A stretch of 64,000 nt of DNA, from positions 64,001 through 128,000 of the forward strand of contig CAWGVG010000029.1 in the NCBI GenBank assembly GCA_963825865.1, written 5' to 3'. The notes under the pieces are model-generated. The model ran no database searches. It saw nothing but the letters and a program-made list of their open reading frames with translations, and was not told where the DNA came from. Origin of the DNA: an uncultured Nitrososphaeraceae archaeon. Lineage in GTDB: Archaea; Thermoproteota; Nitrososphaeria; Nitrososphaerales; Nitrososphaeraceae. The first letter of the stretch is position 1; each line of letters starts with the position of its first letter. Positions 21,448 to 53,705 of the stretch are shown in pieces. The translations under genes and the position numbers were made by a program.

Positions 21448-21650
21448 GTATTATGCAAGCCTCTTCCAATTATGATTACACACACTACCAGTAATCACTC
21501 AATCTCTGTTTATATAATGCAAAGAAAAATATTTTATCCTTCAAACAACATCCAACAGGCAGAAAAGAATGAATATGATGTATGCCTGTCAACTTCACAA
21601 CTGAAAACAAAACAACATTTTATGTAATTGCAAGATAATACTAGATAGTT

Positions 21651-23835
21651 GACGATTGGACATAAATCCAGACTCTATTTTTTGCAAATATATATTGATG
21701 AATTAGGCTAAAGCTATCCTTTGGATGTCTGAATTTGTGATGACATATAATAAAACATCCTCAAAGGACAGCACATGATAGTTCAGAATCCATCCTTATT
21801 GGTATTCTGTATTTGATAGGCTTGATACCATGGCCAGAATCACAAAAGATGAAAAAAAGAGGTAGACCATACGTCTATTCTTCTACTGTCATACTACGAT
21901 GTTTCATAGTCAGATTGTGGTTTAGAATGGATTCTAACAACGCATTACATGAATTCCTAGGAATGGATTACCCTTACAATAAGAAGATAATGAAAAGATG
22001 TGGTCTTACCCAAATACCAGATAGACGAACATTTGACAGACGTCTTAAGACCATATCCATAGACATCAAGGAAAGGATTGCTACTATGACTAGTCTATTA
22101 GTAAATGGGAAGATAATAGACCCTTATATTGTTGCAATAGATGCTTTGTTGCATGATTAATTATCTTGTAAGTGATACTTATTTGACCACTCACCATTTA
22201 GCTTGCTAGTATTAATTATTCTGGTATGGTTGACTGGCCTTGCTATAATGAATCACTAGTTAGGCGTGGTCAAGTACTCTTGGATTTTGATGTACTTGAT
22301 GGATGGGATCATGAATTATGTCAAATGAACCTTGGTAAGGTTGGTGAGCCCTACTGCTACCCAAATTCATTTATTCAGCTTCTAGGTTACATGAGAGCAT
22401 ATTTCCATCTACCATATAGACAAACACAGGGTGTAGTCATAGCTCATGCAAGTAAAGAAGTATCAAACACACCACATTATAGGACCATTAATAGACGTAT
22501 AAACAGGCTAGAGATTAAAATCGATGAAAAATTAGGAAATGATATTGTCATTGCTTTAGACAGCACCGGCATTAAGGTAGTAATCGAGGGGAATGGATGC
22601 ACCACAAATGGCATGTCAGAAAAGGATATCTAAAGATACACATAGCAGTTGATATCGAGAAGAAAAGAATTGTATCTCTGGAGGTAACAAGTGAAGAGGT
22701 ACATGATGGTAAGATGCTAAAGAAGTTAGTAGACAATGCTTCTGAAAATAATAATCTGAAGGGTATATTAGCAGATGGTATGTACGACAGCAATAAGAAT
22801 TTTAGATACCTATCAAAGAACCACATTAAGCCTGGTATAAAGACAAGAAGTAATTCCAAGGTCAAGTCAACTAACTGTCATGCTAGGAATATGTCTGTAG
22901 TAAGACAACAAGCAAACCTCAAAAAATGGAAGCGTAGCGTGAGCTATGGGTACAGGTGGATAGCAGAAACAGCATTCTCTTCCATTAAAAGAACATTTGG
23001 TGAACATGTAACAGCTAGAAAGTTTCCTCACATGGTAAAAGAGATCCTCCTAAAGGGAGCTCTGTATAACATGTTCAATCGAATGACCTAGCTAACGGTT
23101 TGCATAACCTAAAATCCTAATGAATTATGCAACAGAGGAGCAATAGATAGTACATTGCTCAAAGCCAGAGGACATGTTTGGCACAAATCATCTATGGATA
23201 AAGGAATAGTACCACGTTCAGGTATAGATACAGATGCCAGGTGGGGATTCAGTCATACCAGAGGTTGGATATTTGGTTACAAACTACATTTGATATCAAG
23301 ACTGGTTCTACCATAGTACCTTTAGCAGCAGATTTTACAACTGCTAATGTACAGGATAATCAAATGTACAATCCTATGATATCATCATCATCATCATCTC
23401 TGTTCCTAGAAACATGTTTCATGATAGGTGATTCTGGGTATGACGACAATAAACTATATGATTTAGCATAAACAGAGGATTTGAACTGGTATGTCCAGTG
23501 CAAAGGTACAAAAATACCCCAAAGAATAGACTAGAGCTGATACAATTCTATGAATCTGAGTTAGGACAGGCTATTTACTCTTGGAGAAGTAAATCGATAG
23601 AACCACTAATAGAACATATTAAATCTGTTTTTAGAATAGACCCATTACCGGTAAGAGGCTATCAGAAGGCTGCTGGAATAGTACTTCTGTCAGTACTACT
23701 GTATCAGATCCTTGTCTACTACAATTATAAAACCAGACCTAGTCAACGACCAAAAGCAATCAAACACATGTTATGTAGTTAATACATCACTAAATGATAG
23801 ATGAAAAATGTAGAATTGAATTATGCCCATGTCTC
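21651..23835 (+). mobile_element. DDE IS (IS4/IS5/IS982-like), copy A1, interrupted by a nested IS5
   Basis: Ends GACGATTGGACATAA / GAGACATGGGCATAA (rc) shared with the copy at 52227..53407; transposase motifs VAIDST, GYKLH, GDSGYD, IEPLIEHIK. Confidence 0.9.
22142..23139 (+). mobile_element. IS5-family (IS903-like) IS, copy 2, nested in IS A1
   Basis: Near-identical to 2867..3868; 8-bp TSD GCAATAGA at 22134-22141 and 23140-23147, inside the A1 codons for V-A-I-D. Confidence 0.93.
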
Positions 23836-24399
23836 AGCTACCTTCCTTTTTGATTTTCTTCCTCCAGGATTAATTCTTATGGCAATTGTTCCTAAATGAT
23901 TCTCTTCTCCAAAAATATCTTCCATCAACAGCCACAACCGCGGCATTTCATAATCATCTATAGTTACACAAATTATTCCATCTTCACTTAGTAAATTTTT
24001 GGCTAATCCGAGTCTGTGGTTCATAAATGAAAGCCATTTTGTATGTCGGTAAGGATCTTCAGCATCTACATAATTATTGTTGTATTTCCAGTCTTTTGCT
24101 CCTGTGTTATAGGGAGGATCAAGATAAATTACATCGATTTTTCCTTTATGCGTGTAATTCAAAACAGAAAGAGCATGGTAATTATCGCCCTCTATCAAGA
24201 TATTTACAGGCTTTTCCTTGTCTGTCATTATTTCTTTACTTTTAACTTCTTCTAATATTGGCAATTTTGTCTTACACTGTTCAACTACCTCTTCCTGCTT
24301 ATCTTCCCAAACCAATCCAAATTTTTTCCTTTTTTTTAGTTTCTTTATCTCTTGGATAAGGTCATTTTTAGAAAAATCGTCATAATTATTAACGATCAT
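23836..24399 (-). pseudogene. mod: type III R-M methyltransferase (Mod-like), 5' part, cut by IS A1
   Basis: KKFGLVWE, NILIEGDNYHAL, IYLDPPYNTG, HTKWLSFM; ends at GRKSKRKVA at the IS boundary. Confidence 0.85.
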
Positions 24400-24481
24400 T
24401 ATATTTCCACTATGTTGAAAAATTTAGATCGTTCTTAAAAACTTGTCTTAACATTTACAATTTCTCTAGTAATGTGTTTTA

Positions 24482-25341
24482 CTATACTACCTTCATGCCG
24501 TCTAACATAGTTGTGAAAATCTGATAACCTGATAGTATTGGCGTATCAGCCTTTTTTAGTCCTCTTGTAGTTTTCTCCCTATATCTAACCTCACAATTCA
24601 AACGTTCCATCTTGTTATTATTGTGGTCGCCTTGTAACCTGATAGGTAGTATATGCCTAGTTCTCGGTGTTATGTTTGTGCAAAATTCCTTGTCAAACGA
24701 GTCATTGAAATTCGGCGCTCCATCACTAATCAAAGTGTTAGGTCTTTTGTCTGTTACCTCCCTTCATTTATGAAATATTAGATTTATATTCGCTGTGTAT
24801 TTTGTGTTAGCGATTTGCTGAGCAATCCAAAATCTTGTCTCGTCATCCATTAGAGCATATAGATATTCATGTCATCTTTGACTTTTAGAAATAGCTCGTC
24901 TTTTCTCCATGCATCACCTACGTTTGTTTTAATTTTCTCGATAATTTTCCATTAATCCAACATATTTTTCTAATCCACTTGTAAATAGCAACATGGTTCA
25001 TCTTTACTCCCTGCAATTTCAAAAATTGTTTTACATTACGAAACGATTTTGCCTGTAAAATACAAATGCATTGCAGAGGCTATCATTTATGGAGTAGCAT
25101 GCATTTTCTCGAATCCTAAGTTAATTGTAAAATAATGATTGCATTGTCTGCAATTGTATTTTTGTAAATCAGCGTATTTATTGTGCCTAACACCATCTCT
25201 GACAATATTAAACGATTTACAGAATATACAGCATTGGTTAGTAATAGGTTCACACAGGGCCGGTAACGGCGTTACTCTGGATTTTATATACGGGTCCTTT
25301 GGATCTGCTTTCAGTAGAATATTTGATGCTGGCCTGCCCAT
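24482..25341 (-). pseudogene. IS6-like DDE transposase with N-terminal Zn finger, degraded
   Basis: CIFCKS...YNCRQC; MDDETRFWIAQQ on the minus strand; SDGAPNF; NNNKMERLNCEVRYREK; several frameshifts. Confidence 0.7.
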
Positions 25342-25857
25342 AAGATATTCGTATTATTGATATAATCTTCAATTTTGTGAAAAAATTAGTGTCTGGACTA
25401 ATCTACAGTGTTCATGCAGCGGAATTACAAATAGACTGTTAACAAGAGCTAATCCTACGACCATACCTATTATATAGATGTTTGATATGTGAATACGGCC
25501 ATATTTGCCTAAGATGCTTGAGACTAATTCATCTACTTCTTCTTCTTTTGTTGTATCATCTTTGATTCGTTGTACTGTGTTGTTGAAGAGGTTCACATAG
25601 ACCGTATCGTCGATAGTAAGATAGTAGAATATCTTCAGCATCATCCTGTGATGGGTTTTCTTGTGAATCTATATCTTTCTGGGTTATTTCTTGCTGATTC
25701 AGTTACAGACAGAAGTGCGTATCTTAGGAGTACTTTTGCATTTGACAAATACCTACTCACTTTGTTAGAAATTGCGTAAGACGGGGTCGATACCCTAAGC
25801 TATACTTCTATTGTACCATATCGTATTGACAAAGGGATAACACAGCTAATGACGATT

Positions 25858-26038
25858 CTTTTTAAAGCCTATTTTTCTAAATTTACTTTAATATTCAAAA
25901 TATGTAAGGATGTGTTAGAAGGTTATCTGATAGCAGAGGGCCTTAAGAGGTATCACGAAGATGACTTGAAAAATTGCAATATCTAAGTTTGATATATTTA
26001 TATCCATATCAAGAAGGGCATGCTTTCATGATATAATG
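25858..26038 (+). repeat. ~185-bp diverged direct repeat, unit 1
   Basis: Shares colinear blocks with 26533..26721: CTTTTTAAAGCCTATTTT, TCTAAATTTA, GTAAGGATGTGT, TAGCAGAGGG, GACTTGAAAA, GATATATTTATATCCAT, TATAATG. Confidence 0.75.
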
Positions 26039-26532
26039 AACTGTCAATCCATCCTTTATCAGGTCCTCGAAGATCCAGATAGGTGAGCGCCAGGACTACT
26101 ATAAAGAGCAAATACAGAAATACCAAAAGTCAGAGGTGTTTACTGATTGGGAGCAGTATATGACAGCAATTCCAGTACCTTTCGCTAGATAGCATAAAGA
26201 TATGATTGCACACTGCAAGATGCTGCTGTATGATGGACTTTTGCAATACATCCAAAAAGGTCTGACAAGCTGATAACTTCCTTAAGAACAGCTGTGGATA
26301 ATGAACGAACTCTAGACAAGGAAGCAACATCACATAACGATTCATGCTTTTCGCCTAGCTATGAAGTTTTATAGATTTGAACAGTAGCAGAAGGAGGAAG
26401 CTTGGACACCCAGTAGACAGTAGAATATTGTTTCCGAAAACCCCAGGCAAACAGGTTTCGAGCAAGTACTGTTATTGCAATATATCATACTAACAAAGTG
26501 ATTATACAGCTGACAATAGGTCTATTGAATTA

Positions 26533-26721
26533 CTTTTTAAAGCCTATTTTTTCTAAATTTAGTGAAATTCATCATTAAAGTAAGGATGTGTCGGAAGGGA
26601 TAATGGTAGCAGAGGGTTTTAAGACCCAGCAGGAAGGGGACTTGAAAATGCGATATCTAGATTGGATATATTTATATCCATCTGCACATATCTATATAGA
26701 GCATGTTTTCATTATATAATG
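26533..26721 (+). repeat. ~185-bp diverged direct repeat, unit 2
   Basis: Same colinear blocks as 25858..26038. Confidence 0.75.
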
Positions 26722-27348
26722 GTAATACGTTCTCGTACAAGATTGAAACGATCGCGTATATACAGTATCATCTAAAAAGATACATTTGATAGATGTCCAG
26801 AAACAGATTTTTGATGCGCTATATAGCGCATCAGCTCATTATAGAAACTGACCTAGATATGGACGAAACACTATGAAACGAATGACTTGATTAGCTATCC
26901 ACATACAGACTAATTTATAAAAGCAGGGCCTAAACCTAGTGTCTTACTAGACATGACCAATGGAGCGTGTTTATCATGAGCCTGGGCAAAATTTTCCTTC
27001 TTGCCTCATCTGTTCGTCATTGCATTCGAGACCTATTTTCTCTATAATATCAAGAAAATTGGCTTGATGGTTATTTTTATGTTGTAGTGTAATTGGTCAT
27101 GCGTAATTGTTAAAGCAACTCATTATCCTCTACCATTTTGTTGCATGTTTAGTTATCAGAGCATTCTTTGCAGTAATATATGCATAACAAACTATTACTA
27201 GCCCATTAATAATAATAATAATAATAATCTAACAATATTTTTTGTTCAAAATAAATTTTTCAAACTACGATAATGAAGAACGCCTTGGTATATAATGACA
27301 TACTTTATAATACTAAAATAAGACTTGGAAGAGGGAAAAGTTAGCACT

Positions 27349-27837
27349 CTAAGGTGAAATCATTGGTAAGATCCAGCTGCTAAAGAAAACTATTGCGATC
27401 GCTTTTATTACTTTGCCAGAGACAATAGCAATAGCAAATGTTCTAAAATTATATTTTTTTGCACCAGCAATCAACGGTATAAAGTCTCCAACTATCGGTA
27501 TCCAAGGAGAAAAAAAGATTATCGCCAAACCATATCTTTCTAATAATAAAAGGCTTCTTTCTTCATGCTCTTTCTTTGGTGTTTTGTATAGTCTTTTTAA
27601 AAACTTATTGCCGCTGTAACCTATGTAATAAGCAATAAATCCCCCAATTATTGAACCGACTATCAAAATAAGAGATACAATAGTTTTGCTATGACCAGAC
27701 AATAACAAGCCTGATATCGTCAATTCTGTCGGAATTGGAATGATTGATGAAAGAAGCCCGTTTATGAAAAGACCGATTAGACCATATTTTACGAAAAGCG
27801 AGTTATGGACTATAGAATCTATTATTTCACCAATCAT
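27349..27837 (-). CDS. DedA/YqaA (VTT domain) membrane protein
   Basis: SSIIPIPTE, GSIIGGFIAYYIG, WIPIVGDFIPLIAG. Confidence 0.85.
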   Translation of the reverse strand: MIGEIIDSIVHNSLFVKYGLIGLFINGLLSSIIPIPTELTISGLLLSGHSKTIVSLILIVGSIIGGFIAYYIGYSGNKFLKRLYKTPKKEHEERSLLLLERYGLAIIFFSPWIPIVGDFIPLIAGAKKYNFRTFAIAIVSGKVIKAIAIVFFSSWILPMISP

Positions 27838-28284
27838 TGTTACAACCTAGTTGTTACTGTTTATCTACCTTCATCATTCAAAAACCTTCGAGCAATTAGA
27901 TAGTAGATATAATCCATTCCAAACAAAATACAAATTGCATGCGAATGAATGCGACAATTATATGCGAATGAATGGATAAAGACGTAGCTTGATTACCAAT
28001 ATTAAACAAAGTCCATGATTGCTGTACCAGCACCTATTGTAAGCATAAGCACGCGGCTTGCATTTATAGGCACCTTCCCTTCCTGTTGAAATTGCCTTTT
28101 CTTTTAGATTAAACTCTTCCTTGGTTTGGTGAAAGTTTCTAAAGATGCCCTATCTTGTAGTATAGTATGTGTTGAAATATTTTTTGTATTCACAGCAATA
28201 AATATGCTTTTCGAGTCGCCGACGTCCTCTCTCACAAATGGCTTAAAGTTATGGCATTATTTTTATTTGTATATCTATACAAAC

Positions 28285-28977
28285 CTATCTTGTTATCTTT
28301 GCTCTCAGCAATTCATAAGCTCTACCAGCATCATTATCATTTAATATAAGCACAATTTCATTAGGAGCAAAAAAAGCATTATGTAATGGAATTTGATTAT
28401 TGTAAAGAATGTCTGAAACTAGAGATAACAAATTATAATATGGATTTTGTTGCTCTTGGTGGTCTTTGGAAGAAGGGAATGTAATAGTTATCTTTGAAAG
28501 CCCTTCTTTTATTCTACCATCAAATTTTTTAGAAGCGGTAGAAACAATGTTTCTGATTTCCTCAATGTTCTCTGCAAACAATCGGAGTTGTTTATTTGTC
28601 TGGAAAAGATTGTAACCACTTTCCTTCTCAAGCACTTCATCAAGGATATTTGAAAGCTCGTCAAACTCTTGATCATTAAAATCAACATCAATAATACTGC
28701 CTGTTAATGACATCCTAGCTCCTTCGAATGAATAGTTGATGATCGGTTTTTTTTCTCTTTCTTCTTCTATTAGTGTATCCGTAAATCTTTTGATCGCTAC
28801 CACAATCGTGCCTACGTTAACATTAGAAGAGCCTGTAATTTTTTCAACGTCTGGTTTGATTTTCTGTGCTAAAGCTGTATAATTAGCAATTCCAGATACA
28901 AGGGCTTGAAGATATAGGTTGTTAGAAGATAATACTGTTCTTATAGCTTGAGGAACCGATATCGACCCGCTATACAT
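28285..28977 (-). CDS. archaeal HTH/ACT-domain protein
   Basis: LQALVSGIANYTALAQKIKP...IVVAIKRF N-terminus and ACT-like C-terminus (LSKITITF...EIVLIL). Confidence 0.65.
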   Translation of the reverse strand: MYSGSISVPQAIRTVLSSNNLYLQALVSGIANYTALAQKIKPDVEKITGSSNVNVGTIVVAIKRFTDTLIEEEREKKPIINYSFEGARMSLTGSIIDVDFNDQEFDELSNILDEVLEKESGYNLFQTNKQLRLFAENIEEIRNIVSTASKKFDGRIKEGLSKITITFPSSKDHQEQQNPYYNLLSLVSDILYNNQIPLHNAFFAPNEIVLILNDNDAGRAYELLRAKITR

Positions 28978-29072
28978 ATGTGTTATAATTACAAGTAAGT
29001 AATAATAAACTTTTTTAAATGTAAGAAAAATATATATATTGTAGTATTTATTACATATTGTGGGGATATTAC

Positions 29073-29609
29073 ATGTGGAAAGATCCATGGTGGAGTTTTA
29101 AAGGAAGTAGGATTTTTGAAGAGATGAATAAAGAATTTGCAGAAGCAGAAGAGATGATGAATAGAATGTTCAGGACAGTGCATGAAATAAGTCCATCTGA
29201 TGTTGCTCGCAAACTCTCCGTATTATTATGGCTACCAAATAACAATGGGTCCTGATGGCAAACCACGCGTCAGAAAATTTGGTAATATAAAGCCATCTGC
29301 TAGAGGTTTGATAGAACAGGCTGGCGTAAGACAACCATTGTTTGATACAGCAATCGATGGAAAGGAAAATACACTTACTATTACTGCAGAGATGCCTGGT
29401 ATCAACAAAGAGGATATTAAAGTTAACATGGCTGACCAATATGTTACAATACATGCCGGGAAAGGGGACAAGAAATATCATACAGATATACCAGTTGATG
29501 TTGAGCTTGACGATACTTCTGCAAAAGCAACCTACTCAAACGGGATATTGGAGCTCAAGATCAAGTTAAAACAAGCTCTAAAATCACATGGTAAGGAAAT
29601 AAAGGTGGA

Positions 29610-29613
<4 letters not shown>
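29073..29613 (+). CDS. hsp20: small heat shock protein Hsp20 (archaeal type), frameshifted
   Basis: PYYYGYQITMGPDGKPRVRKFGN, AEMPGINKEDI, ATYSNGILELKI, GKEIKVE. Confidence 0.9.
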
Positions 29614-31899
<2,286 letters not shown>

Positions 31900-31935
31900 T
31901 TATAAGCATAGAAAGAGGTGTCAAGCTGAATACAT

Positions 31936-32891: not shown

Positions 32892-32902
32892 GCGGAACAT
32901 GA

Positions 32903-41700: not shown

Positions 41701-41805
41701 CAATACTATATAGAAAAAATATGCAATGTTAATCAAATTTTATATATTCTTAAATCTAACTGATAATATTTACTATTGTCAAAGCCCAAGATAAATTCCA
41801 AACAA

Positions 41806-42932: not shown

Positions 42933-43332
42933 TAGAAAATAGCTGTTGTTATCTCAATGTGCAAGACATTGTAGGTGCTAACTCATGCAGAGCAGTTATT
43001 ACTTCATTTATATTCTTTCCCAGAACTTGTCAATACTAGCAAAGATTCCATATTCCTAGAATCAAAACAAAAGATGATCCTTGACATTCAGACTTCTATA
43101 GAAAGAAACATGATGATCGCTGAACAATTTGTAAGTTATGGAGTGGCCGCAAAATGGTGGTATCAAAGTATCAGGTTTCTAATCATATAGTTATTTATGG
43201 TGCGTTATATTACCTTTATTTAGTATTATAAAGATGGTTAATAATGCCTCGAGACATTTTGACTACCACTATAACCTATATGTATTGATAGTAAGTTACT
43301 TTTCTCAACTATCTATCTAGTTTGATAGTATC

Positions 43333-44230
43333 TCACAATGTAATAACGTTGATAGAAGTATCTGAAGGAATTAGTGTATGTTCGGCTTGAGCAACTATTT
43401 TTCCATTTCCTTCAACAAGAATAGGATATGCATGTACATTCCTTTTCTTTATTAAAATTTCCATAGATTGACGCGCCTTTTTCTCTTCGTATTTGTCCAT
43501 CATCCATCTGAGAGCGAATGGTAAAGTCTTGAATCTATTCCACGTATGTTCAAGAAACTCATCTACCTCTTTTTCTTTAGTTGGTTTGCGAGAAATTATG
43601 CCAAAGATATTGCGAGTCTTGCCTTCATAAACTACTCCTTGACCATCTTTTGTGGTTACAAAAGGTTCGATAGCATATGCTTGATTAGGAACTAGGATAA
43701 ATGATGACCCAATAGTCCAGATATTTGGTATTGATCTACCTGCATGAATAGTGTATTGCTCTAGCGAATGACCGCTCAAGTTCTGAATAGGTCTGAATCC
43801 TTGCTTTGAAATCGTATTTTCGATTACCTTTCCAATATCACTAGCTTTTGTATTAGCTTTAGCAATCCTGACTGCTTCGCTTAAAGCGTTCTCGGCAGTT
43901 TTTACTAGTGTTTCGTATTTTGGATTATAACAAACAGTCACCGCTGTATCAGCAATATATCCTTGTATATGCACACCAATATCGATCTTTAAAACATCAG
44001 CATCTTTTACCATAATCTGGTCATTTGGTTCTGCTGTATAGTGAGCTGCCTATGTCATTCAAACTAACATTAACCGGAAAGGCAGGTGCCGCATCCTTTC
44101 TTCTAATTTCAGCTTCTATTGATTCACAAATTTGAAGCAGGGTGGAGCCAATATAATATTTTTTTCGTGTATTTTCCCGTACTTCAGATGCTATCTTGCC
44201 GGCCTGCTTATAGCAATCTAAAAAATTCAT
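43333..44230 (-). CDS. map: methionine aminopeptidase type II, frameshifted
   Basis: PAFPVNVS, KIDIGVHIQGYIADTA, NLSGHS, AIEPF, AQAEHT. Confidence 0.92.
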
Positions 44231-44342
44231 ACGCTAAAAACTTCTTGAAGCTAGTAATATATATACAAATATTGTCATGACGAAGCTTAAAATTATACTG
44301 ATGAATAGTACATTAAGGAAATAATTCTTTGGAATTGAGCGG

Positions 44343-44416
44343 GGGGTCGTTGTCTAGCTTGGTATGATGCCAGCCTTGGGCGCTGGAGGCCGCCGGTTCA
44401 AATCCGGCCGACCCCA
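44343..44416 (+). tRNA. tRNA-Pro(TGG)
   Basis: Acceptor stem GGGGTCG/CGACCCC; anticodon arm CCAGC-CTTGGGC-GCTGG; T-arm GCCGG-TTCAAAT-CCGGC. Confidence 0.95.
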
Positions 44417-44666
44417 GTAAACTCTTCAAATTCTTAAAACAATAGATAAAGAATTATGATGTTACGTCGATCATAAATATCCTAAATGCGGTATTAGATC
44501 TATGACCGCAGTAACTACAATGAAGAGGTTAACTACATTTGTTTTAATATCTGTAATATTGACATCAGTGTTTCTTATAACTAACACCCATTCAGCATCT
44601 GCACAGTGAAACCATACTGAATACCATAGAATAGTTCTCAATTGTTTAATTCACTATAAAAAATCA

Positions 44667-44745
44667 ACCCTGACGGATTAGCTAAATACATATTTTTGTT
44701 AGTAAATCGTGCTCAAATCACTAGTAGTATTGAATCCGTCAGGGT
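44667..44745. repeat. 79-bp MITE-like element with perfect 13-bp inverted repeats
   Basis: ACCCTGACGGATT (44667-44679) and AATCCGTCAGGGT (44733-44745). Confidence 0.6.
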
Positions 44746-45080
44746 ATCCATAATAACCATAGTGCATATTCAATTCTAGAATTAATAAAAAAGAACTAAC
44801 TAAGTTGGAAAGTTATCGTCAAATACTAATCAATCACCAATAAGATAAGCAAAAAAATATTAACCGCTTAAAAGTGGTGTAGATGCAGTAACATACATTA
44901 TTCATTTCATCTATAAATAAGTTATAATGAATATTTACTATAGATTGGTAAATCAATTACTATACCACGTTTGATATACTCAATAGTTATACTAAATAAA
45001 TTAGCAGTAAATCATATTAGATAAATCAGCAGTAACTTCGCCAAGTCAAATATATAGATGACATCGTATTGAGAATATAA

Positions 45081-45443
45081 ATGAACAACACAGCAATAAC
45101 TACTCTAACAATAGCTGCCATCTTGGCAGCAACATTAGTAGTAGGAGTAACGCTGGCAACAACAACAACAGCAATAACTGCATTTGCATCTAGTAGAGGA
45201 AATGGTAATGGTAACACAGATACCGATCAGATAGCCAAGCAAAAAGCATATGTAAGTGGATTTGATAACTCATTCAATCAAGAACTTCAAAACCTGATAT
45301 GCACCCATCCAAGCGCCTCTTGTACAGTAGAGCAAACTCCTACTCCACCGCCGCCACCTCCACCACCTCCAAGTGATGACGACGACGGCGAGGATCGCCA
45401 CGACGATCCAAAAAAAATGGATGACATGAGCAAATACTGGTAG
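45081..45443 (+). CDS. small secreted protein with poly-Pro and acidic tail
   Basis: Signal-like TLTIAAILAATLVVGV...AFA; NLICTHPSASC; PTPPPPPPPPPS. Confidence 0.6.
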   Translation: MNNTAITTLTIAAILAATLVVGVTLATTTTAITAFASSRGNGNGNTDTDQIAKQKAYVSGFDNSFNQELQNLICTHPSASCTVEQTPTPPPPPPPPPSDDDDGEDRHDDPKKMDDMSKYW

Positions 45444-45639
45444 TTCTTTATTACTACCACAACTTTTTTTCTTTTTTGCATCTGCGCAAGAATAAAAATC
45501 TATTTGCAAACGCTTTTACTTGTTTTAACTTGGTTTCAGAACATACTATTATTCGCTTAACATGCTGACACCAACAGTGTAAGGATCCTTAAGGATCTGT
45601 AAGTTTATACAGAACAACACAAAAATTCCCCTTGCAGAG

Positions 45640-45879
45640 TTGTACCTTTTAGAGATTTTACAAAAAGTAAGAGAAAAAGAGAAGACGGTAAGGTCAATGG
45701 TAAAACTCGATTACGACAAGGATAATTACAGAGAAATGATTCTTGATGCTGCAGAAACAGTCATAGGATATTTTGGCTTTGATAGTGCTGTTTATGAAAA
45801 TCCTAGGAATAATAGAAAGAAAAAGAAATGGTATGATGAATTACTGGAAGAAAGAAAAAAAGATATCAAACAGAAATGA
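45640..45879 (+). pseudogene. C-terminal fragment resembling an accessory family-B DNA polymerase
   Basis: DYDKDNYREMILDAAETVIGYFGF resembles a PolB thumb end (YDxxxYxxxLxxAAExIL). Confidence 0.45.
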
Positions 45880-46224
45880 TGATGGAAAAACAATAGCCTC
45901 AATTGACGGTCCAAAATATATATGAATACTAAAAACCCATCTTACCAATAATTGCATAAGAAGGAACTACAGCTAAATTGTTCATAGCAATAACTAAACT
46001 TTTTAGCAATGTTAATCAATATTAGACTAGCGCTGGCGCTTCTATAATACGATAATAATAAGTGCGCGCTGGAGGAACAGATATCATCAACGGTCCTACT
46101 ACTATTGGTATTAGTAGCATCTTTGTTATTCTTGTTTTATCTACTTAATAAGCTCCATGAAAACAATGTTGAACAATGTTCTCATCATATTTATTTTGAT
46201 GCCAATACATATCATATATGTTTA

Positions 46225-46772
46225 AGCCTGGCATTTGTCCAGAACTCATTTAGTCTATACTCTGCTCGCAGAACTATCTTTATTGGTCATTTCGGGACTA
46301 ATGGTTCTTGAGTACATCAGCAGCTTTTCCTAAGGAAATTGTAATTATGCAGCCTGCGCTTCCTTATCTTGGTCTTTTGGCTAGTATATTCTATAAGCTC
46401 TTGCTCTGAATGTGCGTCCCTGAACGCATATAGCTGATCATTCCTATCTATCAGACTCCCTAGTATAGGAATCTCGTCTTTTGAGATGTTGCTGACACTA
46501 TTCCATTCTGCATTATAGGGGTTAGCAGTCGATATGATGGTTGTCGGTGCATCTAGTTCAAAATGGGTGGCATACTTGGTTAATGTTGTCCTACCCTCTT
46601 CAGCAATGTCAGTTATATGACCTTGATCTTCTGGTGACATAAAACCAATCTCGTTAATGGCACATATCGCACCTTTTGCCAATACAGCAGGACCCAACCT
46701 TAAGAATAGGCCACCATCGCTTTCCTTATCTACAATACCGATCAAACTCTTGCCGCTTTGTATTCTGTGCAT
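46225..46772 (-). pseudogene. MCM-type AAA+ helicase fragment
   Basis: SGKSLIGIV, LRLGPAVLAKGAICAINEI, IAEEG, TTIISTANP, SLIDRND, NYNFLRK. Confidence 0.8.
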
Positions 46773-47017
46773 TAATGCTGTGTCTTTCATATGTGTGATC
46801 CAATTGATTATGTCAACTTGAATAATCCTGACATCTCTACCTTCAATCAACTTGGCATAATCTTTCAGCTTCAATATTCATATAGTCCATGAAGTAGCTC
46901 AGAGCTCTTACGATAATCGCGCTTTGTAGCTTCAGATCTGCATGAGTTTATGAAATTTCTATAATATTGATTGTTTGAATTATCTCCAGATATTTGATTA
47001 ATAATATTTCTCTGCAT
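46773..47017 (-). pseudogene. N-terminal (SAM-like) fragment of a tyrosine integrase
   Basis: Own translation across shifts: YYRNFINSCRSEATKRDYRK...SYFMDYMNI...DYAKLIEGRDVRIIQVDIINWITHMKD. Confidence 0.55.
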
Positions 47018-47706
47018 TTTCTTTCTTGGTATGCAGTAGTGAACAAAAAACTACTATTAAAGCGTCTATCCAAGTATGTTAATCAATATTAACGATATTG
47101 TATATTCTAAACGTATATGAATGTTGAAAGGAAAAACCCTTTAAAGCGTGATCAAGCATTGAATGATGCCACGAATGGACAAATAGGAGAAGAGCCTAGA
47201 CCTGAACCAATGTCTGATATAAAAGATCAGCGTGTGAAAACTGCACGTAAAATGTCTAGAGATTTTTAAAGAAACCCTACATTGAAAGAAGACGAAAGTC
47301 AATCCGATACTAAGACTCTTTTAACATGGTCAAATATCCAATACCTTGTAGAAGGATTAGATGCGTTACTACATACTAACCTTGATGGGGATAAGCGAAG
47401 AAAAGTTATCGAGTTAAGAGACGAGTTATCTGCTTATGTTAGCAATATGTTCAGTGATTGAAAAACAACTAATGTAAAAATAGCGTATAGTCCCATTTAA
47501 AAATAATGAGTCAATCCCACAACTGTTCGAATATCCAAAATGTGTGGTTAATTATTAGACTCCAGTTTGACTATTTGTTTCTGAAGATCCATAAGTTAGC
47601 AATATGAACCCATACATAACTGGATATGAAAGATTTCTCCCATACCATTCCGCATCGTTAATCTTTATTATGTGATCTTTAATAACTAAGGATGGCCAGA
47701 CAATAA

Positions 47707-48645
47707 ATGTCTAACAACCATCTATACAATCGCGATATAATCTCAATCAAGGATTTCAGCAAGCAAGATCTCGAATTCGTTTTCTATTCGACAGATATAA
47801 TTAGCAGTCTGAGACCAAATGAAAAGAGTGAACTTGGCAAAGGCAGGACTCTAGGTTATATCTTCTATGAGCCAAGCACTAGGACCAGAATGAGTTTTGA
47901 ATCAGCTATGGCATCATTAGGTGGAAGCTCTATTGGAATCTTTGATCCCAAATCTTCTTCGATTGAAAAAGGTGAGAGTCTTGCTGATACTATTCGAATA
48001 ATAGATCTTTATTCTGATGTTATTGTTTTACGACATCCGCTTGATGGTTCAAGCAGGTTTGCTGGTGAATTATCAAAGAATCCAATAATCAATGCAGGTA
48101 GTGGAAGTGAAGAACATCCTACACAAGCGATGCTTGATCTTTATACTATAATCAAAGAGAAAAAAAAAATTGACGGGCTTACAATAGGCATTGTTGGAGA
48201 TCTAAAGTACGGCAGAACAGTCTATTCATTATTATATGGTTTGGCAAATTATAATGTAGATATTCATCTAATATCACCATCTATATTATGTATTAGAAAA
48301 GAATCGATCTATGACGTACGAAACAATCTGAAAATATATGAACATAGTCAGCTTGATGACGATATTTTGTCTAAACTTGATATAATTTATGTTACAAGAA
48401 TACAAAGAGAGCGTTTTCCCGATATACAAGAGTATGAAAAAGTAAAGGGTACGTATACTATCGATATGAATACTCTGGCAAAAGCAAAACCAGATGTCTC
48501 CATAATGCATCCAATGCCTAGAACAGAAGAAATTTCACATTCTATCGATGGTACAAAGAATGCAATTTATTTTAAGCAGGCCGCATACGGTAAGGAATTG
48601 AGAGCAGCTCTTCTTGCCTTAGTGTTAAACGAAAATCCGATCTAA
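47707..48645 (+). CDS. pyrB: aspartate carbamoyltransferase catalytic subunit
   Basis: FYEPSTRTRMSF, HPTQAMLD, GDLKYGRTV, TRIQRERF, HPMPR. Confidence 0.95.
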   Translation: MSNNHLYNRDIISIKDFSKQDLEFVFYSTDIISSLRPNEKSELGKGRTLGYIFYEPSTRTRMSFESAMASLGGSSIGIFDPKSSSIEKGESLADTIRIIDLYSDVIVLRHPLDGSSRFAGELSKNPIINAGSGSEEHPTQAMLDLYTIIKEKKKIDGLTIGIVGDLKYGRTVYSLLYGLANYNVDIHLISPSILCIRKESIYDVRNNLKIYEHSQLDDDILSKLDIIYVTRIQRERFPDIQEYEKVKGTYTIDMNTLAKAKPDVSIMHPMPRTEEISHSIDGTKNAIYFKQAAYGKELRAALLALVLNENPI

Positions 48646-48781
48646 ATGAAAATCTCAGAATATAGACAAATCATCGTTGATAAACAAACTGCAAAGTTTC
48701 TTCTACGACTTTTTAATTTACATTTATAATCCTTACCGGCATCATAGAATAAAAATGAGTATAAATAAGAGAATTGTTTGT

Positions 48782-51502
48782 TTAGCCCGAGGCGCAAGTA
48801 CTAAAGCCGCATTCAATGCACATATTGCATCCTTCAGTGATTATTAATTTTGCTTTGCATGATGGACAGATTTCATCTTCATTTAGTTCAGTTTGGGGAG
48901 CTTGCATTGTCTTCTTTGTAGTGCCAGTTTGTTCTACAGTTAAGACGCTTCCAATGGCTTCACGCTGGATTTCTGTTTCCTTAAAGATTTTTTCTATTTG
49001 TTCTCGGACATATGGCTCTGTAACGTTTGCATATACATAATCAATGACATATCTGCTTGGTCTTACAATGAATCTCTTTTCCTCTTTATTATTACCAGTA
49101 ATGTGCAGGACTTGCTCATGTCTTGAGCCGTCTCTATATACTGTGACTCCCTTTAAACCGAACTCATGCGATAGCAGATATGCACACTTCACATCTTCTG
49201 CAGTTACATCTCCGGGCATGTTGATTGTCTTTGCAATCGCATTACTGATCCACTTCTGCCATACTGCTTGGGCCATCAGATGGTCAGTCCAATGTATGTC
49301 GATTGCAGTAACAAAGGTTTTCTGAATCCATTCTGGAATTTCAGTTAGCCCACGTACTGAACCGTAGTTGTTTGCAATCTTGGTCAGTATTTCATCGTTG
49401 TATAAACCGTTTTCCTTTAATACATTTTCGAAAATCTTATCGGTATAAAAGAATCTCCCAACTGTTACACGTTTTTCGAAAACTAATGCAAAGATGGGTT
49501 CAACACCATTTGAGGTATCTGCAATCATAGACAATGTACCTGTGGGAGCAATTGTTGATGTCCAAGAGTTTCTGACCCCATGTTTTTGGATCTTTTCAAT
49601 TAGCGAATCCCAATCATATGCATGCATTTCTTTTGGTAAATCATAGTATCCTGCAATTGGAATCTTGCCCTTAACATAATCTGTCTCTTTGAACAGAGGA
49701 AATGGACCTCTTGCCTTTGCAATAGCAACACTTTCCTCTATACTGTAGTATGACATTGCTTCTGCAAGTTTATCCATGAAATCATAGCCATCATTAGAGT
49801 TATATGGGATCCTCAATAAGAACAGCAAATCCGCAATACCCATTATACCAAGACCAATTCTTCTTGTCAGTTTTGTGTTGATATCTATCTCTTCTACAGG
49901 ATACTTGTTCATATCAATTATATTGTCCAAGAATCGCGATGAGAGTCTAATTGCCTGCTCGTATCTTTGCCAATCGAATTCATACATTCCATCTGCCTTA
50001 CGCTTTACAAAATTTGCAAGGTTGATTGAACCTAGGTTACATGATTCATATGGGTATAGTGATTGCTCACCACATGGGTTCGTTGCACGTAATGGTCCAC
50101 CCTTTGCATTGACACATGGGTTGTATTTGTTGATGTTGTCAAAGAAAATAACACCAGGTTCAGCGCTCTTCCAAGCACTTAATGCAATCAAATCCATTAA
50201 CTGATGTGAATCGATTTGTTTTATAAGATCCCTAGTTCTAGGATTGCGCAATGCATACTTTTGGTTGTCCTTATTTACAAGGGATTGCCAAAAATCTTCC
50301 CAGACACCAACGCTGACATTAAAGTTCTCAAACACGCCAGGCTTTGTCTTGGCAGTTATGAATTTTTCAATATCTGGATGCCATGCTTCTAGAATACCCA
50401 TATTTGCTCCACGTCTTTTTCCACCTTGCTTCACTACATCGGTAACGACATCAATGATCCTCATAAACGAGGTTGGACCCGATGCAACACCAGAAGTTGA
50501 GGCAACAATGTCGCCTTCTGGTCTCAGGTCAGAATAATTTATTCCGACTCCTCCACCTGATTTGAATATCATGGCTGCGTCGGTAGATGATTTCATGATT
50601 TTGTACATATCATCCTGCATATCAAGAACGAAGCATGCTGACAATTGACCAAGCTTTGCGCCAGCATTCATCAATGTTGGTGTGTTTGGAAGGAAGTCCT
50701 TTGATACCATCAAATTATAATATTCTTTAATCCTTTCTTCGTACATTGCTAACTTGCCTTCAGCCATGAATCTAAGTAGTTCCTTAAAGCTGACTTTCAT
50801 CTGTCCATGTTTTGCGAGGTAAATATAATGTCGAATCAAAGATTCAAAATGATACTTGTTCAGATAATAGTCATTGATCTTTAACTTTAGATCAAAGTCA
50901 TCAACTTTGGCATAATATTTTTCTGCTTCTTCAATATTTTGAATATGCCCACCTGCTAAATTGAACAATCGTGAATCGTGTATAATATCTGGAATTGCTA
51001 CTAGAATTGCAACTCTTTCGAACATCAGTTTTGGACCTTCAATAATTTCGTTATTGCTATCCCGTAGTAGATAACGTGCTGCTAATACCCTAAGCGAATT
51101 AACATCAAGCGCCTTGTCTACTTCATCAAGGTCTTTCTTGTTTAGAATCTTCATCTTATCGTCACGAACTTTGCGTCGCTCATGTCTATACAGAATGTAA
51201 GACTTCGCGGTTTCAGACAAACCTTCTTCAATGAGTATAGATTCTACTATATCCTGTACATCTTCAACGCTTGGAATGGCATCTTTTTCAGTCGAGTCGT
51301 AACCCTGATGAATTATCTTCTGCACGACCTTATTTGCCAGTCTTTCAGCCAACGGATAATCTGGTTTGCTGGTTGCTACAAGTGCCTTATAGATTGCATC
51401 TGATATCTTGGAGTGCACAAAATCGACTATTCTTCCATCTCTTTTTCGTATGTGTACAATCAAACTCTCTTTCGATTTGTTAAACTCAGTAACTCTAGCC
51501 AT
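48782..51502 (-). CDS. nrdJ: class II (adenosylcobalamin) ribonucleotide reductase with N-terminal ATP cone
   Basis: IRKRDGRIV cone; PNTPTLMN, QLSACFV, GGKRRGANM, TNPCGEQ, ESCNLGS, IAPTGT; C-terminal CPSC...CIEC. Confidence 0.93.
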   Translation of the reverse strand: MARVTEFNKSKESLIVHIRKRDGRIVDFVHSKISDAIYKALVATSKPDYPLAERLANKVVQKIIHQGYDSTEKDAIPSVEDVQDIVESILIEEGLSETAKSYILYRHERRKVRDDKMKILNKKDLDEVDKALDVNSLRVLAARYLLRDSNNEIIEGPKLMFERVAILVAIPDIIHDSRLFNLAGGHIQNIEEAEKYYAKVDDFDLKLKINDYYLNKYHFESLIRHYIYLAKHGQMKVSFKELLRFMAEGKLAMYEERIKEYYNLMVSKDFLPNTPTLMNAGAKLGQLSACFVLDMQDDMYKIMKSSTDAAMIFKSGGGVGINYSDLRPEGDIVASTSGVASGPTSFMRIIDVVTDVVKQGGKRRGANMGILEAWHPDIEKFITAKTKPGVFENFNVSVGVWEDFWQSLVNKDNQKYALRNPRTRDLIKQIDSHQLMDLIALSAWKSAEPGVIFFDNINKYNPCVNAKGGPLRATNPCGEQSLYPYESCNLGSINLANFVKRKADGMYEFDWQRYEQAIRLSSRFLDNIIDMNKYPVEEIDINTKLTRRIGLGIMGIADLLFLLRIPYNSNDGYDFMDKLAEAMSYYSIEESVAIAKARGPFPLFKETDYVKGKIPIAGYYDLPKEMHAYDWDSLIEKIQKHGVRNSWTSTIAPTGTLSMIADTSNGVEPIFALVFEKRVTVGRFFYTDKIFENVLKENGLYNDEILTKIANNYGSVRGLTEIPEWIQKTFVTAIDIHWTDHLMAQAVWQKWISNAIAKTINMPGDVTAEDVKCAYLLSHEFGLKGVTVYRDGSRHEQVLHITGNNKEEKRFIVRPSRYVIDYVYANVTEPYVREQIEKIFKETEIQREAIGSVLTVEQTGTTKKTMQAPQTELNEDEICPSCKAKLIITEGCNMCIECGFSTCASG

Positions 51503-51807
51503 CCCGTATATACAAAAAAAATGTTAGTTTAAAAGCATTACCTAATTAAAAGATAATACTTCACAGGTGTAAATGAAGCCGCTTACTTAACATAAACTGA
51601 TTTTAATTATATTGTACTAAAGAAAAATTGCGGTAATAGATTTAATATCCAACATTTAGTCCATTTATGTGGGATATTATTCAAATGATAATGTTTTATT
51701 TCCTCAAAATTAAGCTATTTTACACCATCACATTAAATACTTTTCACAATATGGGAGGATTATATTGCCAGTGTAATTTCATCCATAACTAGTCTTTGGA
51801 ATGTCCT

Positions 51808-51940
51808 TAGAAGAATGTTGGAATACATCAAAGAATGATCTTCTCATTTGCAGATACTATCAGTCATTTGCTGATTTTACAAACCAAATTAGTGAGTACT
51901 TCAGAACTAAAACCTCCAACTTAACATATGAAAATTGGCA
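51808..51940 (+). pseudogene. IS630-like transposase C-terminal relic
   Basis: EECWNTSKNDLLICRYYQSFADFTNQISEYFRTK. Confidence 0.5.
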
Positions 51941-52226
51941 TGCATTATGTTCATTGAATTGAGCAGCAACTCATGTTTGATCAACTGTCTGAATATCATT
52001 TTAATGTTGACAAGTCTTGGTTGAGATCATTAAATTTACTGTATATTTTTGTCCGAAGAATATCCAAGAGTATTATCATTCCCACTAGTGAATTCGGTTC
52101 TGACTTCTGTTTAATACTCTCAGAAGATTGTCCCAAAACATTCTCAAATTATGATATAAGATCATTTAAGCTTTTGAAGAGATGTGTTTGCTTGGCTGAA
52201 GTGACTGTTCATTTCCTTAACTATCT

Positions 52227-53407
52227 GAGACATGGGCATAATTCATTTCTATATTTTTTATCTATCATTTAGTGCTGCATTAACTACATAACATGTGTTT
52301 GATTGATTTTGGTCGTTGACTAGGTCTGGTTTTATAATTGTAGTAGACAAGGATTTGATACAGTAGTACTGACAGAAGTACTATTCCAGCAGCCTTCTGA
52401 TAGCCTCTTACCTGTAATGGGTCTATTCTAAAAATAGATTTAATATGTTCTATTAGTGGTTCTATCGATTTACTTCTCCAAGAGTAAATAGCCTGTCCTA
52501 ACTCAGATTCATAGAATTGTATCAGCTCTAGTCTATTCTTTGGGGTATTTTTGTACCTTTGTACTGGACATACCAGTTCAAATCCTCTTTTAGTACCTCA
52601 AATCATATAGTTTATTGTCGTCATACCCAGAATCACCTATCATGAAACATGTTTCTAGGAACAGAGATGATGATGATGATGATATCATAGGATTGTACAT
52701 TTGATTATCCTGTACATTAGCAGTTGTAAAATCTGCTCCTAAAGGTACTATGGTAGAACCAGTACTTGATATCAAATGTAGTTTGTAACCAAATATCCAA
52801 CCTCTGGTATGACTGAATCCCCACCTGGCATCTGTATCTATACCTGAACGTGGTACTATTCCTTTATCCATAGATGATTTGTGCCAAACATGTCCTCTGG
52901 CTTTGAGCAATGTACTATCTATTGCAACAATATAAGGGTCTATTATCTTCCCATTTACTAATAGACTAGTCATAGTAGCAATCCTTTCCTTGATGTCTAT
53001 GGATATGGTCTTAAGACGTCTGTCAAATGTTCGTCTATCTGGTATTTGGGTAAGACCACATCTTTTCATTATCTTCTTATTGTAAGGGTAATCCATTCCT
53101 AGGAATTCATGTAATGCGTTGTTAGAATCCATTCTAAACCACAATCTGACTATGAAACATCGTAGTATGACAGTAGAAGAATAGACGTATGGTCTACCTC
53201 TTTTTTTCATCTTTTGTGATTCTGGCCATGGTATCAAGCCTATCAAATACAGAATACCAATAAGGATGGATTCTGAACTATCATGTGCTGTCCTTTGAGG
53301 ATGTTTTATTATATGTCATCACAAATTCAGACATCCAAAGGATAGCTTTAGCCTAATTCATCAATATATATTTGCAAAAAATAGAGCTGGATTTATGTCC
53401 AATCGTC
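52227..53407 (-). mobile_element. DDE IS copy A2, inverted relative to A1, no nested IS
   Basis: Highly similar to 21651..23835 minus the nested IS5; transposase ~52285..53246 with a frameshift near 52595. Confidence 0.9.
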
Positions 53408-53705
53408 AGGTAGCTGCACAACACGAATATGCCTTATTTTTTTCGAGGTCACCATCAGCAAAAGTTGCCCAAATTTCTATAGCACCAGATAAAAAAACTC
53501 ACATCTACAAACCAGATGAGAATGGTAAATGGTTTGAGGAACGTAATCTTAGAAAAGAGGGAGCCGATAGCTTTGCTAGTACAGACTCAAAAAGATACTA
53601 TCCAATTTATTATGATCCAAAAACAGACAAATTAAGCACAAACACCAAGTATCAAATTGAAATTCTACCGATTGATACCCGTGGTCAAAAGAGGATATGG
53701 AGAAC
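53408..53705 (+). pseudogene. mod: type III Mod continuation (middle part)
   Basis: VAAQHEYALFF...NLRKEG...YYPIYY...RGQKRIWR continues the 23836..24399 reading across TSD AGGTAGCT. Confidence 0.8.

What the first reader, a model, noticed from the sequence alone, without database searches (positions are those of the whole stretch)
21643..53415. ~28.4-kb inversion between two inverted IS copies, shown by swapped target-site duplications
Seen: IS A1 (21651-23835, +) has AGATAGTT on its left (21643-50) and AGCTACCT on its right (23836-43). Read in its own orientation, IS A2 (52227-53407, -) has AGCTACCT on its left (rc of 53408-15) and AGATAGTT on its right (rc of 52219-26). Each 8-bp TSD is therefore split between the two copies. 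Inference: 23844-52218 was flipped, either by homologous recombination between two independent insertions or by intramolecular replicative transposition. Several SNPs between the copies near their 3' ends favour recombination. The flipped segment includes cdc48, ftsY, argF, map, tRNA-Pro, pyrB and nrdJ. An assembly mis-join at the repeats would give the same pattern.
Basis: partly seen in the sequence, partly recalled or inferred. Interest (0 to 1): 0.75.

Follow-up and report, generated by a model that had tools for sequence, protein, structure and literature searches.

The report
IS-flanked 28-kb chromosomal inversion
Two oppositely oriented copies of the same mobile element have recombined and flipped the 28 kb of archaeal chromosome between them, which is a clear but textbook kind of genome rearrangement.

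Summary
IS A1 (21651-23835, +) and IS A2 (52227-53407, -) carry reciprocally swapped 8-bp target duplications, AGATAGTT and AGCTACCT. All 7 other full-length copies in the genome have perfect 8-bp duplications.

Two independent lines show that the segment between them is inverted relative to the ancestral order:
- **Split gene.** A DNA methyltransferase gene is cut exactly at the IS. Its first 188 codons abut A1 and the next 99 abut A2. The two parts join in frame and match full-length homologues seamlessly.
- **Synteny.** The NrdD-like gene left of A1 and nrdJ, now 29 kb away on the opposite strand, are adjacent and co-oriented in 21 of 28 relatives holding both genes.

A1 and A2 differ by 17 substitutions, and 8 of these are states diagnostic of another IS lineage. 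They are therefore not sister copies. This favours homologous recombination between two independent insertions over replicative transposition.

Whether the flip exists in cells or only in the assembly could not be tested, because no public contig spans an IS. The mechanism is well known, so interest is low.

The parts
21643..21650 (+). Left copy of target duplication X (AGATAGTT), on the outer-left flank of IS A1
21651..23835 (+). IS A1, 2185 bp. It is a copy of the 1181-bp DDE_Tnp_1 element (ends GACGATTGGACATAA... and ...TTATGCCCATGTCTC) interrupted by a nested IS B, so its transposase gene is broken.
22142..23139 (+). Nested IS B, 998 bp, IS5 family. Its own 8-bp duplication GCAATAGA lies at 22134-22141 and 23140-23147. 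Another copy lies at about 2866-3872 of the window, and the genome holds 20 full-length copies.
23836..23843 (+). Copy of target duplication Y (AGCTACCT), on the inner flank of A1
23836..24399 (-). N-terminal 188 codons of a DNA methyltransferase (PF01555 profile positions 1-84 of 221), ending exactly at the A1 boundary
23844..52218 (.). Inverted segment of 28,375 bp holding cdc48 (in 3 ORFs), prefoldin, ftsY, argF, map, tRNA-Pro, pyrB, nrdJ and mobile-element remnants
48782..51502 (-). nrdJ (class II ribonucleotide reductase). In relatives it lies directly downstream of the NrdD-like gene on the same strand.
52219..52226 (-). Second copy of duplication X (AACTATCT on the + strand, the reverse complement of AGATAGTT), on the inner flank of A2
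52227..53407 (-). IS A2, 1181 bp. Its transposase frame is open for 218 of about 321 codons.
53408..53415 (-). Second copy of duplication Y (AGGTAGCT on the + strand, the reverse complement of AGCTACCT), on the outer flank of A2
53416..53715 (+). Continuation of the methyltransferase: 99 codons plus a stop, in frame with the N-terminal part once the IS and the flip are removed. It matches homologue residues of about 189-303.
17632..19773 (+). HTH / ATP-cone / NrdD-like gene, the conserved upstream neighbour of nrdJ in relatives. It marks the ancestral junction.

Best explanation
Two copies of one 1181-bp DDE-transposase insertion sequence inserted independently, and each made its own 8-bp target duplication. 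One went into the intergenic DNA between the usp/NrdD-like genes and nrdJ (target AGATAGTT). The other went into a DNA methyltransferase gene about 28 kb away (target AGCTACCT), in the opposite orientation.

A single reciprocal homologous crossover between the two inverted copies then flipped the 28.4 kb between them. The crossover most probably fell in their roughly 820-nt 5' stretch, which carries no substitutions. Each IS was left with one half of each duplication.

Shown:
- the swapped duplications
- the split gene
- the broken conserved gene order
- that the two copies are not sisters

Inferred:
- that the crossover was by the host's homologous recombination
- where the crossover lay
- that the arrangement exists in cells and not only in the assembly
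- that the flip is selectively neutral. No gene is newly broken by it, and nrdJ keeps 727 bp of its own upstream DNA.
For: 1. Swapped duplications. A1 and A2 carry reciprocally swapped 8-bp duplications, while 7 of 7 other full-length copies have perfect ones.

2. Split gene. Joining the outer flank of A2 to the inner flank of A1 gives one 287-codon frame across the joint. Full-length methyltransferase homologues of 554-639 aa match 24399-23836(-) up to the IS boundary and then carry on at 53416(+). The next residue follows without a gap in 3 of the 4 homologues checked; the fourth has alignment gaps.

3. Synteny. The NrdD-like gene (17632-19770, +) and nrdJ (48782-51499, -) are adjacent, co-oriented and in that order in 21 of the 28 relatives that hold both, out of 30 searched. 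G009 shows thiolase, chsH2, orf91, orf111, NrdD-like, nrdJ(+), pyrB(-), which is exactly the window's order after un-flipping. G014 shows the same order as far as nrdJ.

4. Not sister copies. There are 17 substitutions and 4 indel columns between A1 and A2, against 7-13 substitutions from either copy to C6, C21a or C9. A1 carries divergent-subfamily states at 8 of 32 diagnostic 3' sites and at 0 of 124 5' sites. A2 carries 1 of 32 and 0 of 124.

5. Assembly behaviour. The assembly threads other repeats of this kind correctly: 7 of 7 other IS A copies and 16 of 20 IS B copies have perfect duplications. The four flanks occur only once in the assembly.
Against: - No read or contig spanning either IS was seen. 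All 4 runs laid were short contigs, and no listed piece bridges 52227-53407; only 32 of 308 pieces were listed. A mis-join at the repeats is therefore not excluded.
- The assembly is imperfect. Conserved genes are fragmented and two contig ends overlap at only 97.35% identity.
- Three relatives among the closest by identity of the NrdD-like protein (G017, G010, G016) have the two marker genes on separate contigs and say nothing. In 2 of 28 relatives (G002, G013) the genes are not adjacent.
- The second breakpoint has no synteny support. In G009 and G014 the order beyond nrdJ (G014) or pyrB (G009) is not conserved.
- All nine copies show no substitutions in the 5' 483 nt apart from one in C19, so that part cannot separate the models.
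Confidence: 0.8

Rival explanations
1. Assembly artefact. The true chromosome has both IS copies with matching duplications and the segment in the ancestral orientation. The assembler threaded the inverted repeat pair the wrong way.
For: - An inverted repeat pair gives exactly this ambiguity when no read spans the repeat.
- The assembly has flaws: fragmented conserved genes and a contig-end overlap at 97.35% identity.
- A second swapped pair and one unmatched IS B copy exist elsewhere in the genome. These could equally be further mis-joins.
- No spanning public contig was found.
Against: - 7 of 7 other IS A copies and 16 of 20 IS B copies sit inside contigs with perfect duplications, so repeats of 1.0-1.2 kb are normally resolved correctly.
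- Because A1 holds the nested IS B and A2 does not, a false join would have to lie within a 483-nt or a 698-nt shared tract. The 698-nt tract differs at 17 substitutions. By inference, reads able to resolve the other copies would span such tracts.
- No alternative contig holds any of the four flanks.
Confidence: 0.12
2. Intramolecular replicative transposition. A single resident IS attacked a target 28 kb away on the opposite strand. This duplicated the IS and inverted the DNA between in one step, and it gives the same pattern of duplications.
For: - The pattern of duplications is formally identical.
- A review of the IS6 family describes replicative intramolecular transposition giving deletion or inversion with loss of flanking repeats (PMC7986276, passages read).
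- Both 8-mers fit the element's target form A-N-N-T-A-N-N-T.
Against: - The two copies would be born identical. They differ by 17 substitutions and 4 indel columns, and neither is the other's nearest relative.
- 8 of A1's differences are states of a divergent subfamily, which random later mutation would not produce.
- 7 of 7 other copies look like simple insertions.
- From my own knowledge and not tested here, PF01609 IS4/IS5-type transposases mostly move by cut-and-paste.
Confidence: 0.05
3. The pair is a composite transposon that inserted as one 31.8-kb unit, or a programmed invertible switch driven by a site-specific recombinase.
For: - Two inverted IS copies bracket a segment, as in Tn5 or Tn10.
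- A weak integrase-like N-terminal match lies inside the segment at 38005-38679 (E 7e-5, no stretch passing on its own).
Against: - The outer flanks do not form a duplication: AGATAGTT against AGGTAGCT on the + strand.
- The segment holds housekeeping genes whose neighbours match ancestral synteny only after un-flipping.
- No invertase or resolvase family was found among the 60 ORFs scanned.
Confidence: 0.03

Closest known systems
IS-mediated chromosomal inversion by homologous recombination between inverted IS copies, recognised by exchanged target-site duplications
   Same: Two near-identical IS copies lie in inverted orientation. Each 8-bp duplication is split between the copies. Gene order and a split gene are restored by un-flipping.
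   Different: Nothing in kind. The host is an uncultured soil ammonia-oxidising archaeon; sources name related transposases as Nitrososphaeraceae. One arm carries a nested second IS. My two literature searches listed no report of such an inversion in this group, but that is a narrow search of open-access text.
Inversion by intramolecular replicative transposition (IS26/IS6 family, Tn3 family)
   Same: It gives the same end product and the same pattern of duplications (PMC7986276, passages read).
   Different: It would need identical daughter copies. Here the copies differ by lineage-diagnostic states, and the transposase is of the PF01609 type, not IS6.
IS5-family insertion sequences. From memory, the ISH1 group is archaeal, about 1.1 kb, with 8-bp duplications.
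   Same: IS A is 1181 bp, has imperfect terminal inverted repeats and an 8-bp duplication, and encodes one 321-aa PF01609 transposase with a weak PF13737 N-terminal match. IS B passes NCBIfam's IS5 model NF033579 at 259 bits against a cut-off of 140.
   Different: The IS A transposase stays below every NCBIfam IS-family cut-off. Its best scores are IS1182 at 79.5 bits against 270 and IS5 models at 44-46 bits against 140. The ISH1 comparison is recalled, since ISfinder is not on hand.

Membership tests
IS-mediated inversion (homologous recombination between inverted IS copies) | Two copies of one IS in inverted orientation on one molecule | tested here: met
   Inverted arms of 470, 161, 164 and 370 nt at 97-100% complementarity. 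The blastn match covers the full length.
IS-mediated inversion (homologous recombination between inverted IS copies) | Target-site duplications exchanged reciprocally between the two copies, while the family otherwise makes matching duplications | tested here: met
   A1 has X|Y and A2 has Y|X. 7 of 7 other copies have perfect 8-bp duplications.
IS-mediated inversion (homologous recombination between inverted IS copies) | Un-flipping restores the ancestral sequence at both breakpoints | tested here: met
   Breakpoint 2: the methyltransferase is restored in frame and is colinear with homologues. Breakpoint 1: NrdD-like and nrdJ are adjacent as in 21 of 28 relatives.
IS-mediated inversion (homologous recombination between inverted IS copies) | Physical molecules spanning each IS in the flipped arrangement | not testable with these tools
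   Only short contigs of public runs were on hand and none bridges A2. Two metagenome scans gave 0 hits.
Intramolecular replicative transposition product | The two IS copies are daughter copies, identical at birth and each other's nearest relatives | tested here: not met
   17 substitutions and 4 indel columns separate them, and each is nearer to C6, C21a and C9. A1 carries 8 of 32 divergent-lineage states in the 3' part, A2 1 of 32.
Composite transposon insertion | Matching direct duplication on the two outer flanks | tested here: not met
   The outer flanks are AGATAGTT and AGGTAGCT on the + strand.
IS5 family (NCBIfam NF033579), for the nested IS B | Transposase scores above the curated cut-off | tested here: met
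   259.1 bits against a cut-off of 140 for the intact copy at 2951-3817. 16 of 20 copies have perfect 8-bp duplications.
IS5 / IS1182 / IS4 families (NCBIfam), for IS A | Transposase scores above a curated family cut-off | tested here: not met
   The best score is NF033551 at 79.5 bits against 270. IS5 models give 24.6-45.6 bits against 110-140. The Pfam PF01609 DDE_Tnp_1 match at 78.7 bits against 23 is met.
Programmed invertible switch (site-specific invertase) | A recombinase gene at or in the segment, with short specific inverted sites | tested here: inconclusive
   No invertase or resolvase family was found among 60 ORFs. There is only a weak Phage_int_SAM_1 match at 38005-38679. Orientation ratios could not be measured.

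The most novel reading that the evidence does not exclude
The flip is not a fixed scar but one of several ongoing, possibly reversible IS-driven rearrangements in a soil ammonia-oxidising archaeon with an unusually large, IS-laden genome. The assembly holds 4.98 Mb at 82% completeness, against 1.2-4.2 Mb for the family relatives listed. Both orientations might coexist in the population. The flip also uncouples nrdJ from the HTH/ATP-cone/NrdD-like gene that precedes it in most relatives. A second reciprocally swapped pair of IS B copies on contigs C26 and C14 fits recurrent events.
Probability: 0.15. Interest if true: 0.4.

Novelty: new member of a known kind. Interest (0 to 1): 0.2.

Why it matters
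This is a clean, internally documented case of IS-mediated genome rearrangement in Nitrososphaeraceae, where gene order is known to vary more than in marine relatives. Bartossek et al. 2012 (PMC3379541, abstract and passages read) proposed IS activity as one cause of that variation.

The case shows that swapped target duplications, a split gene and family-wide synteny can together date and orient such events without reads. It adds nothing new in mechanism. Its practical value is as a flag for anyone using this assembly: either a real structural variant or a place to check for mis-assembly.

Tried and rejected
- **Public runs.** 24 runs were listed and 20 hold part of the stretch, all kept as short contigs. 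I laid 4 of them (X1, X2, X3, X15) on 49500-56500. No listed piece bridges A2, and contigs stop at or inside the IS, so neither orientation could be confirmed. One X1 contig (record 5) matches from 53408 onward and has 205 further letters that lie on nothing in the stretch.
- **Exact-pattern scans of metagenome contigs.** I used the inner flank of A2 and the outer flank of A2. Each gave 0 hits.
- **GC skew.** It follows coding strand and gives no breakpoint signal.
- **Paralogue of the methyltransferase in the genome itself.** None was found.
- **Pfam on the 99-aa C-terminal piece alone.** No hit. Colinearity was shown through homologues instead.
- **Synteny at the second breakpoint in G009 and G014.** Order is not conserved beyond nrdJ (G014) or pyrB (G009).
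- **Earlier notes of this scan.** None fitted the look-up.
- **Composite-transposon and site-specific-switch readings.** Both were rejected on the flank sequences and the absence of an invertase.
Full report
**Observation.** The window is G000:C29:64001-128000. IS A1 occupies 21651-23835 on the + strand and IS A2 occupies 52227-53407 on the - strand. Read in each element's own orientation, the flanks are:
- A1: AGATAGTT | A1 | AGCTACCT
- A2: AGCTACCT | A2 | AGATAGTT

A2 is a plain 1181-bp copy. A1 is 2185 bp because a 998-bp second element, IS B, sits at 22142-23139 with its own 8-bp duplication GCAATAGA.

**Is it more than chance?** The genome holds nine full-length copies of IS A at 98.6-100% identity to A2. 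The seven other than A1 and A2 all have perfect 8-bp direct duplications of the form A-N-N-T-A-N-N-T (7 of 7). A1 and A2 are the only two without a matching pair, and they complement each other. By hand, from base composition, two fixed 8-mer matches have a probability of about 9e-10. Allowing for the target preference visible, the figure is about 6e-4.

**Independent test 1, a split gene.**
- The ORF at 24399-23836(-) runs straight into the right end of A1. It matches Pfam N6_N4_Mtase profile positions 1-84 of 221.
- Rebuilding the pre-insertion site from the outer flank of A2 and the inner flank of A1 gives one 287-codon frame across the joint. That is 188 codons from the A1 side and 99 from 53416-53712(+).
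- Homologues of the N-terminal part are site-specific DNA methyltransferases, the listed ones mostly 554-642 aa.
- I ran 4 of the 120 listed homologues by tblastn against the window. Each matched 24399-23836(-) up to the IS boundary and then 53416-53703(+). In 3 of the 4 the next residue follows directly at 53416; the fourth has alignment gaps.
- Nothing in the window matches homologue residues beyond about 303. The gene was therefore also truncated or had decayed at its 3' end.

**Independent test 2, conserved gene order.**
- I searched 30 relatives with the 713-aa HTH/ATP-cone/NrdD-like protein (17632-19770, +) and with nrdJ (48782-51499, -).
- 28 relatives hold both genes. G011 and G023 gave no match to the first query.
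- Reading the two tables by hand, the genes are adjacent, on the same strand, with NrdD-like first and gaps of 78 to about 1600 bp, in 21 of the 28.
- In 5 relatives (G008, G010, G016, G017, G028) the genes lie on different contigs, so adjacency is undetermined. Three of these are among the closest relatives.
- In 2 relatives (G002, G013) the genes are not adjacent.
- G009 shows thiolase, chsH2, orf91, orf111, NrdD-like, nrdJ(+), pyrB(-). G014 shows the same order up to nrdJ.
- The window has the same left-hand genes at 14555-19770(+). Its nrdJ(-) and pyrB(+) lie 29 kb away at the far end of the segment. Un-flipping 23844-52218 reproduces the G009 order exactly.
- Beyond pyrB in G009, and beyond nrdJ in G014, order is not conserved. 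The second breakpoint therefore rests on the split gene alone.

**Which mechanism?** Homologous recombination between two independent inverted insertions and intramolecular replicative transposition give the same pattern of duplications. The replicative route is described for IS6 elements in PMC7986276 (passages read). Because the target form is palindromic, the orientation of the 8-mers does not separate the two routes.

The copies themselves do separate them:
- A1 and A2 differ by 17 substitutions and 4 indel columns, all in the 3' 698 nt. Each is 7-13 substitutions from C6, C21a and C9.
- Three copies of a divergent subfamily (about 84% identical) served as outgroup.
- 9 of A1's 12 non-majority substitutions carry a state found in that subfamily.
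- By a stricter count, A1 holds the divergent state at 8 of 32 diagnostic sites in alignment columns 841-1223 and at 0 of 124 before that. A2 holds 1 of 32 and 0 of 124.
- These are therefore inherited lineage differences, not noise or random later mutation, and A1 and A2 are not daughter copies of one event.

The long 5' stretch without substitutions is the likeliest place for the crossover, but that is inference. All nine copies show no substitutions in the first 483 nt apart from one in C19, so that part carries no information.

**What the elements are.** Only the C6 copy of IS A keeps a full 321-aa frame. It matches Pfam DDE_Tnp_1 at 78.7 bits against a threshold of 23, but it stays below every NCBIfam IS-family cut-off. 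Close relatives at 82-90% identity are abundant on short soil-metagenome contigs, and NCBI names two of them as transposases of Nitrososphaeraceae. IS B passes NCBIfam's IS5 model and has 20 full-length copies.

**Real or artefact?** This is the open point. Public runs holding the stretch are all kept as short contigs, and none of the listed pieces bridges A2. Two metagenome scans found nothing.

Against an artefact:
- The assembly threads 7 of 7 other IS A copies and 16 of 20 IS B copies with perfect duplications.
- The four flanks are unique in the assembly.
- With IS B nested in only one arm, a false join would have to fall in a shared tract of just 483 or 698 nt.

For caution:
- Conserved genes are fragmented in the window.
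- Two contig ends overlap at 97.35% identity.
- IS B shows one more reciprocally swapped pair and one unmatched copy. These are either further real rearrangements or further mis-joins.

I put the real inversion by homologous recombination at 0.8, an artefact at 0.12 and the replicative route at 0.05.

**Consequence and novelty.** The flip itself breaks no gene. Site 1 is intergenic, and the methyltransferase was already cut by the insertion. nrdJ keeps its own 727-bp upstream DNA but is uncoupled from its usual upstream neighbour.

IS-mediated inversion recognised by exchanged duplications is textbook. The two literature searches I ran listed no such case in Nitrososphaera. One of the listed papers already proposed IS activity as a source of gene-order variation in the soil group (PMC3379541, abstract and passages read). 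This is a well-documented new instance of a known kind.

Noticed in passing
G000:C26:262763-263762 and G000:C14:68578-69577 (outside the window): Two IS B copies carry reciprocally swapped 8-bp duplications: AAAAATAC|GAACAATT and GAACAATT|AAAAATAC. This is a second recombination of the same kind, on two contigs, so its size and type are unknown. A further copy at C14:124140 has unmatched flanks.
   Followed up: partly
window 22142-23139: IS B (IS5 family) is nested in IS A1 with the 8-bp duplication GCAATAGA, which breaks A1's transposase gene. The nested copy's own transposase is split into two frames, 22226-22630 and 22597-23088.
   Followed up: yes
IS A copies genome-wide (alignment): Among nine copies there are no substitutions in the first 483 nt apart from one in C19, but up to 23 in the remaining 698 nt. 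Some of these sit in tight clusters, for example in C21b at A2 positions 943-954 and in C19 at 552-558. Gene-conversion patches or polishing artefacts are possible causes, and I cannot tell which applies.
   Followed up: partly
window 29610-31896, 32903-33781, 43333-44010, 66-1554, 14555-15699: Conserved genes are fragmented or truncated. cdc48 is in three overlapping frames. ftsY and type II map score just under their NCBIfam cut-offs because parts are missing. A beta-CASP nuclease and a thiolase are each in two pieces. This suggests indel errors of a long-read assembly or real decay.
   Followed up: partly
window 17632-19773 (+): A 713-aa protein combines an HTH (HTH_20/DUF7347), an ATP-cone and the C-terminal half of the anaerobic-RNR (NRDD) fold. 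It scores far below NrdD equivalog cut-offs. It lies directly upstream of nrdJ in 21 of 28 relatives across the order and may be an RNR-linked regulator or accessory protein.
   Followed up: no
window 53416-55334: Only about the first 300 of roughly 560-640 residues of the methyltransferase are present. The following frames (53657-54199 and 54642-55334) match no Pfam or NCBIfam family. The region looks like a decayed restriction-modification remnant.
   Followed up: partly
window 38005-39398 and 44343-46871: More mobile-element debris lies inside the flipped segment. There is a weak integrase N-terminal match, and HTH_Tnp_4 and DDE_Tnp_4 fragments. A 184-aa MCM P-loop fragment lies about 2 kb from the only tRNA gene, tRNA-Pro at 44343-44416.
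   Followed up: no
G000:C12:69406-74583 and G000:C19:2-5195: The end of contig C12 and the start of C19 overlap over 5.2 kb at 97.35% identity and share the same IS A insertion site. They are either one locus assembled twice with errors or two strain variants.
   Followed up: partly
whole genome G000: The assembly holds 4.98 Mb in 62 contigs at 81.8% completeness. It is larger than any of the 18 family relatives listed (1.2-4.2 Mb, rounded figures). It has 9 and 20 full-length copies of just these two IS types, plus many partial and divergent ones.
   Followed up: no
window 53408-54522, run X1 record 5: A 1320-letter public contig matches from the first base of the duplication at 53408 onward. 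Its first 205 letters lie on nothing in the stretch laid. This would fit an allele without the IS in the methyltransferase gene, but the letters were not shown.
   Followed up: no
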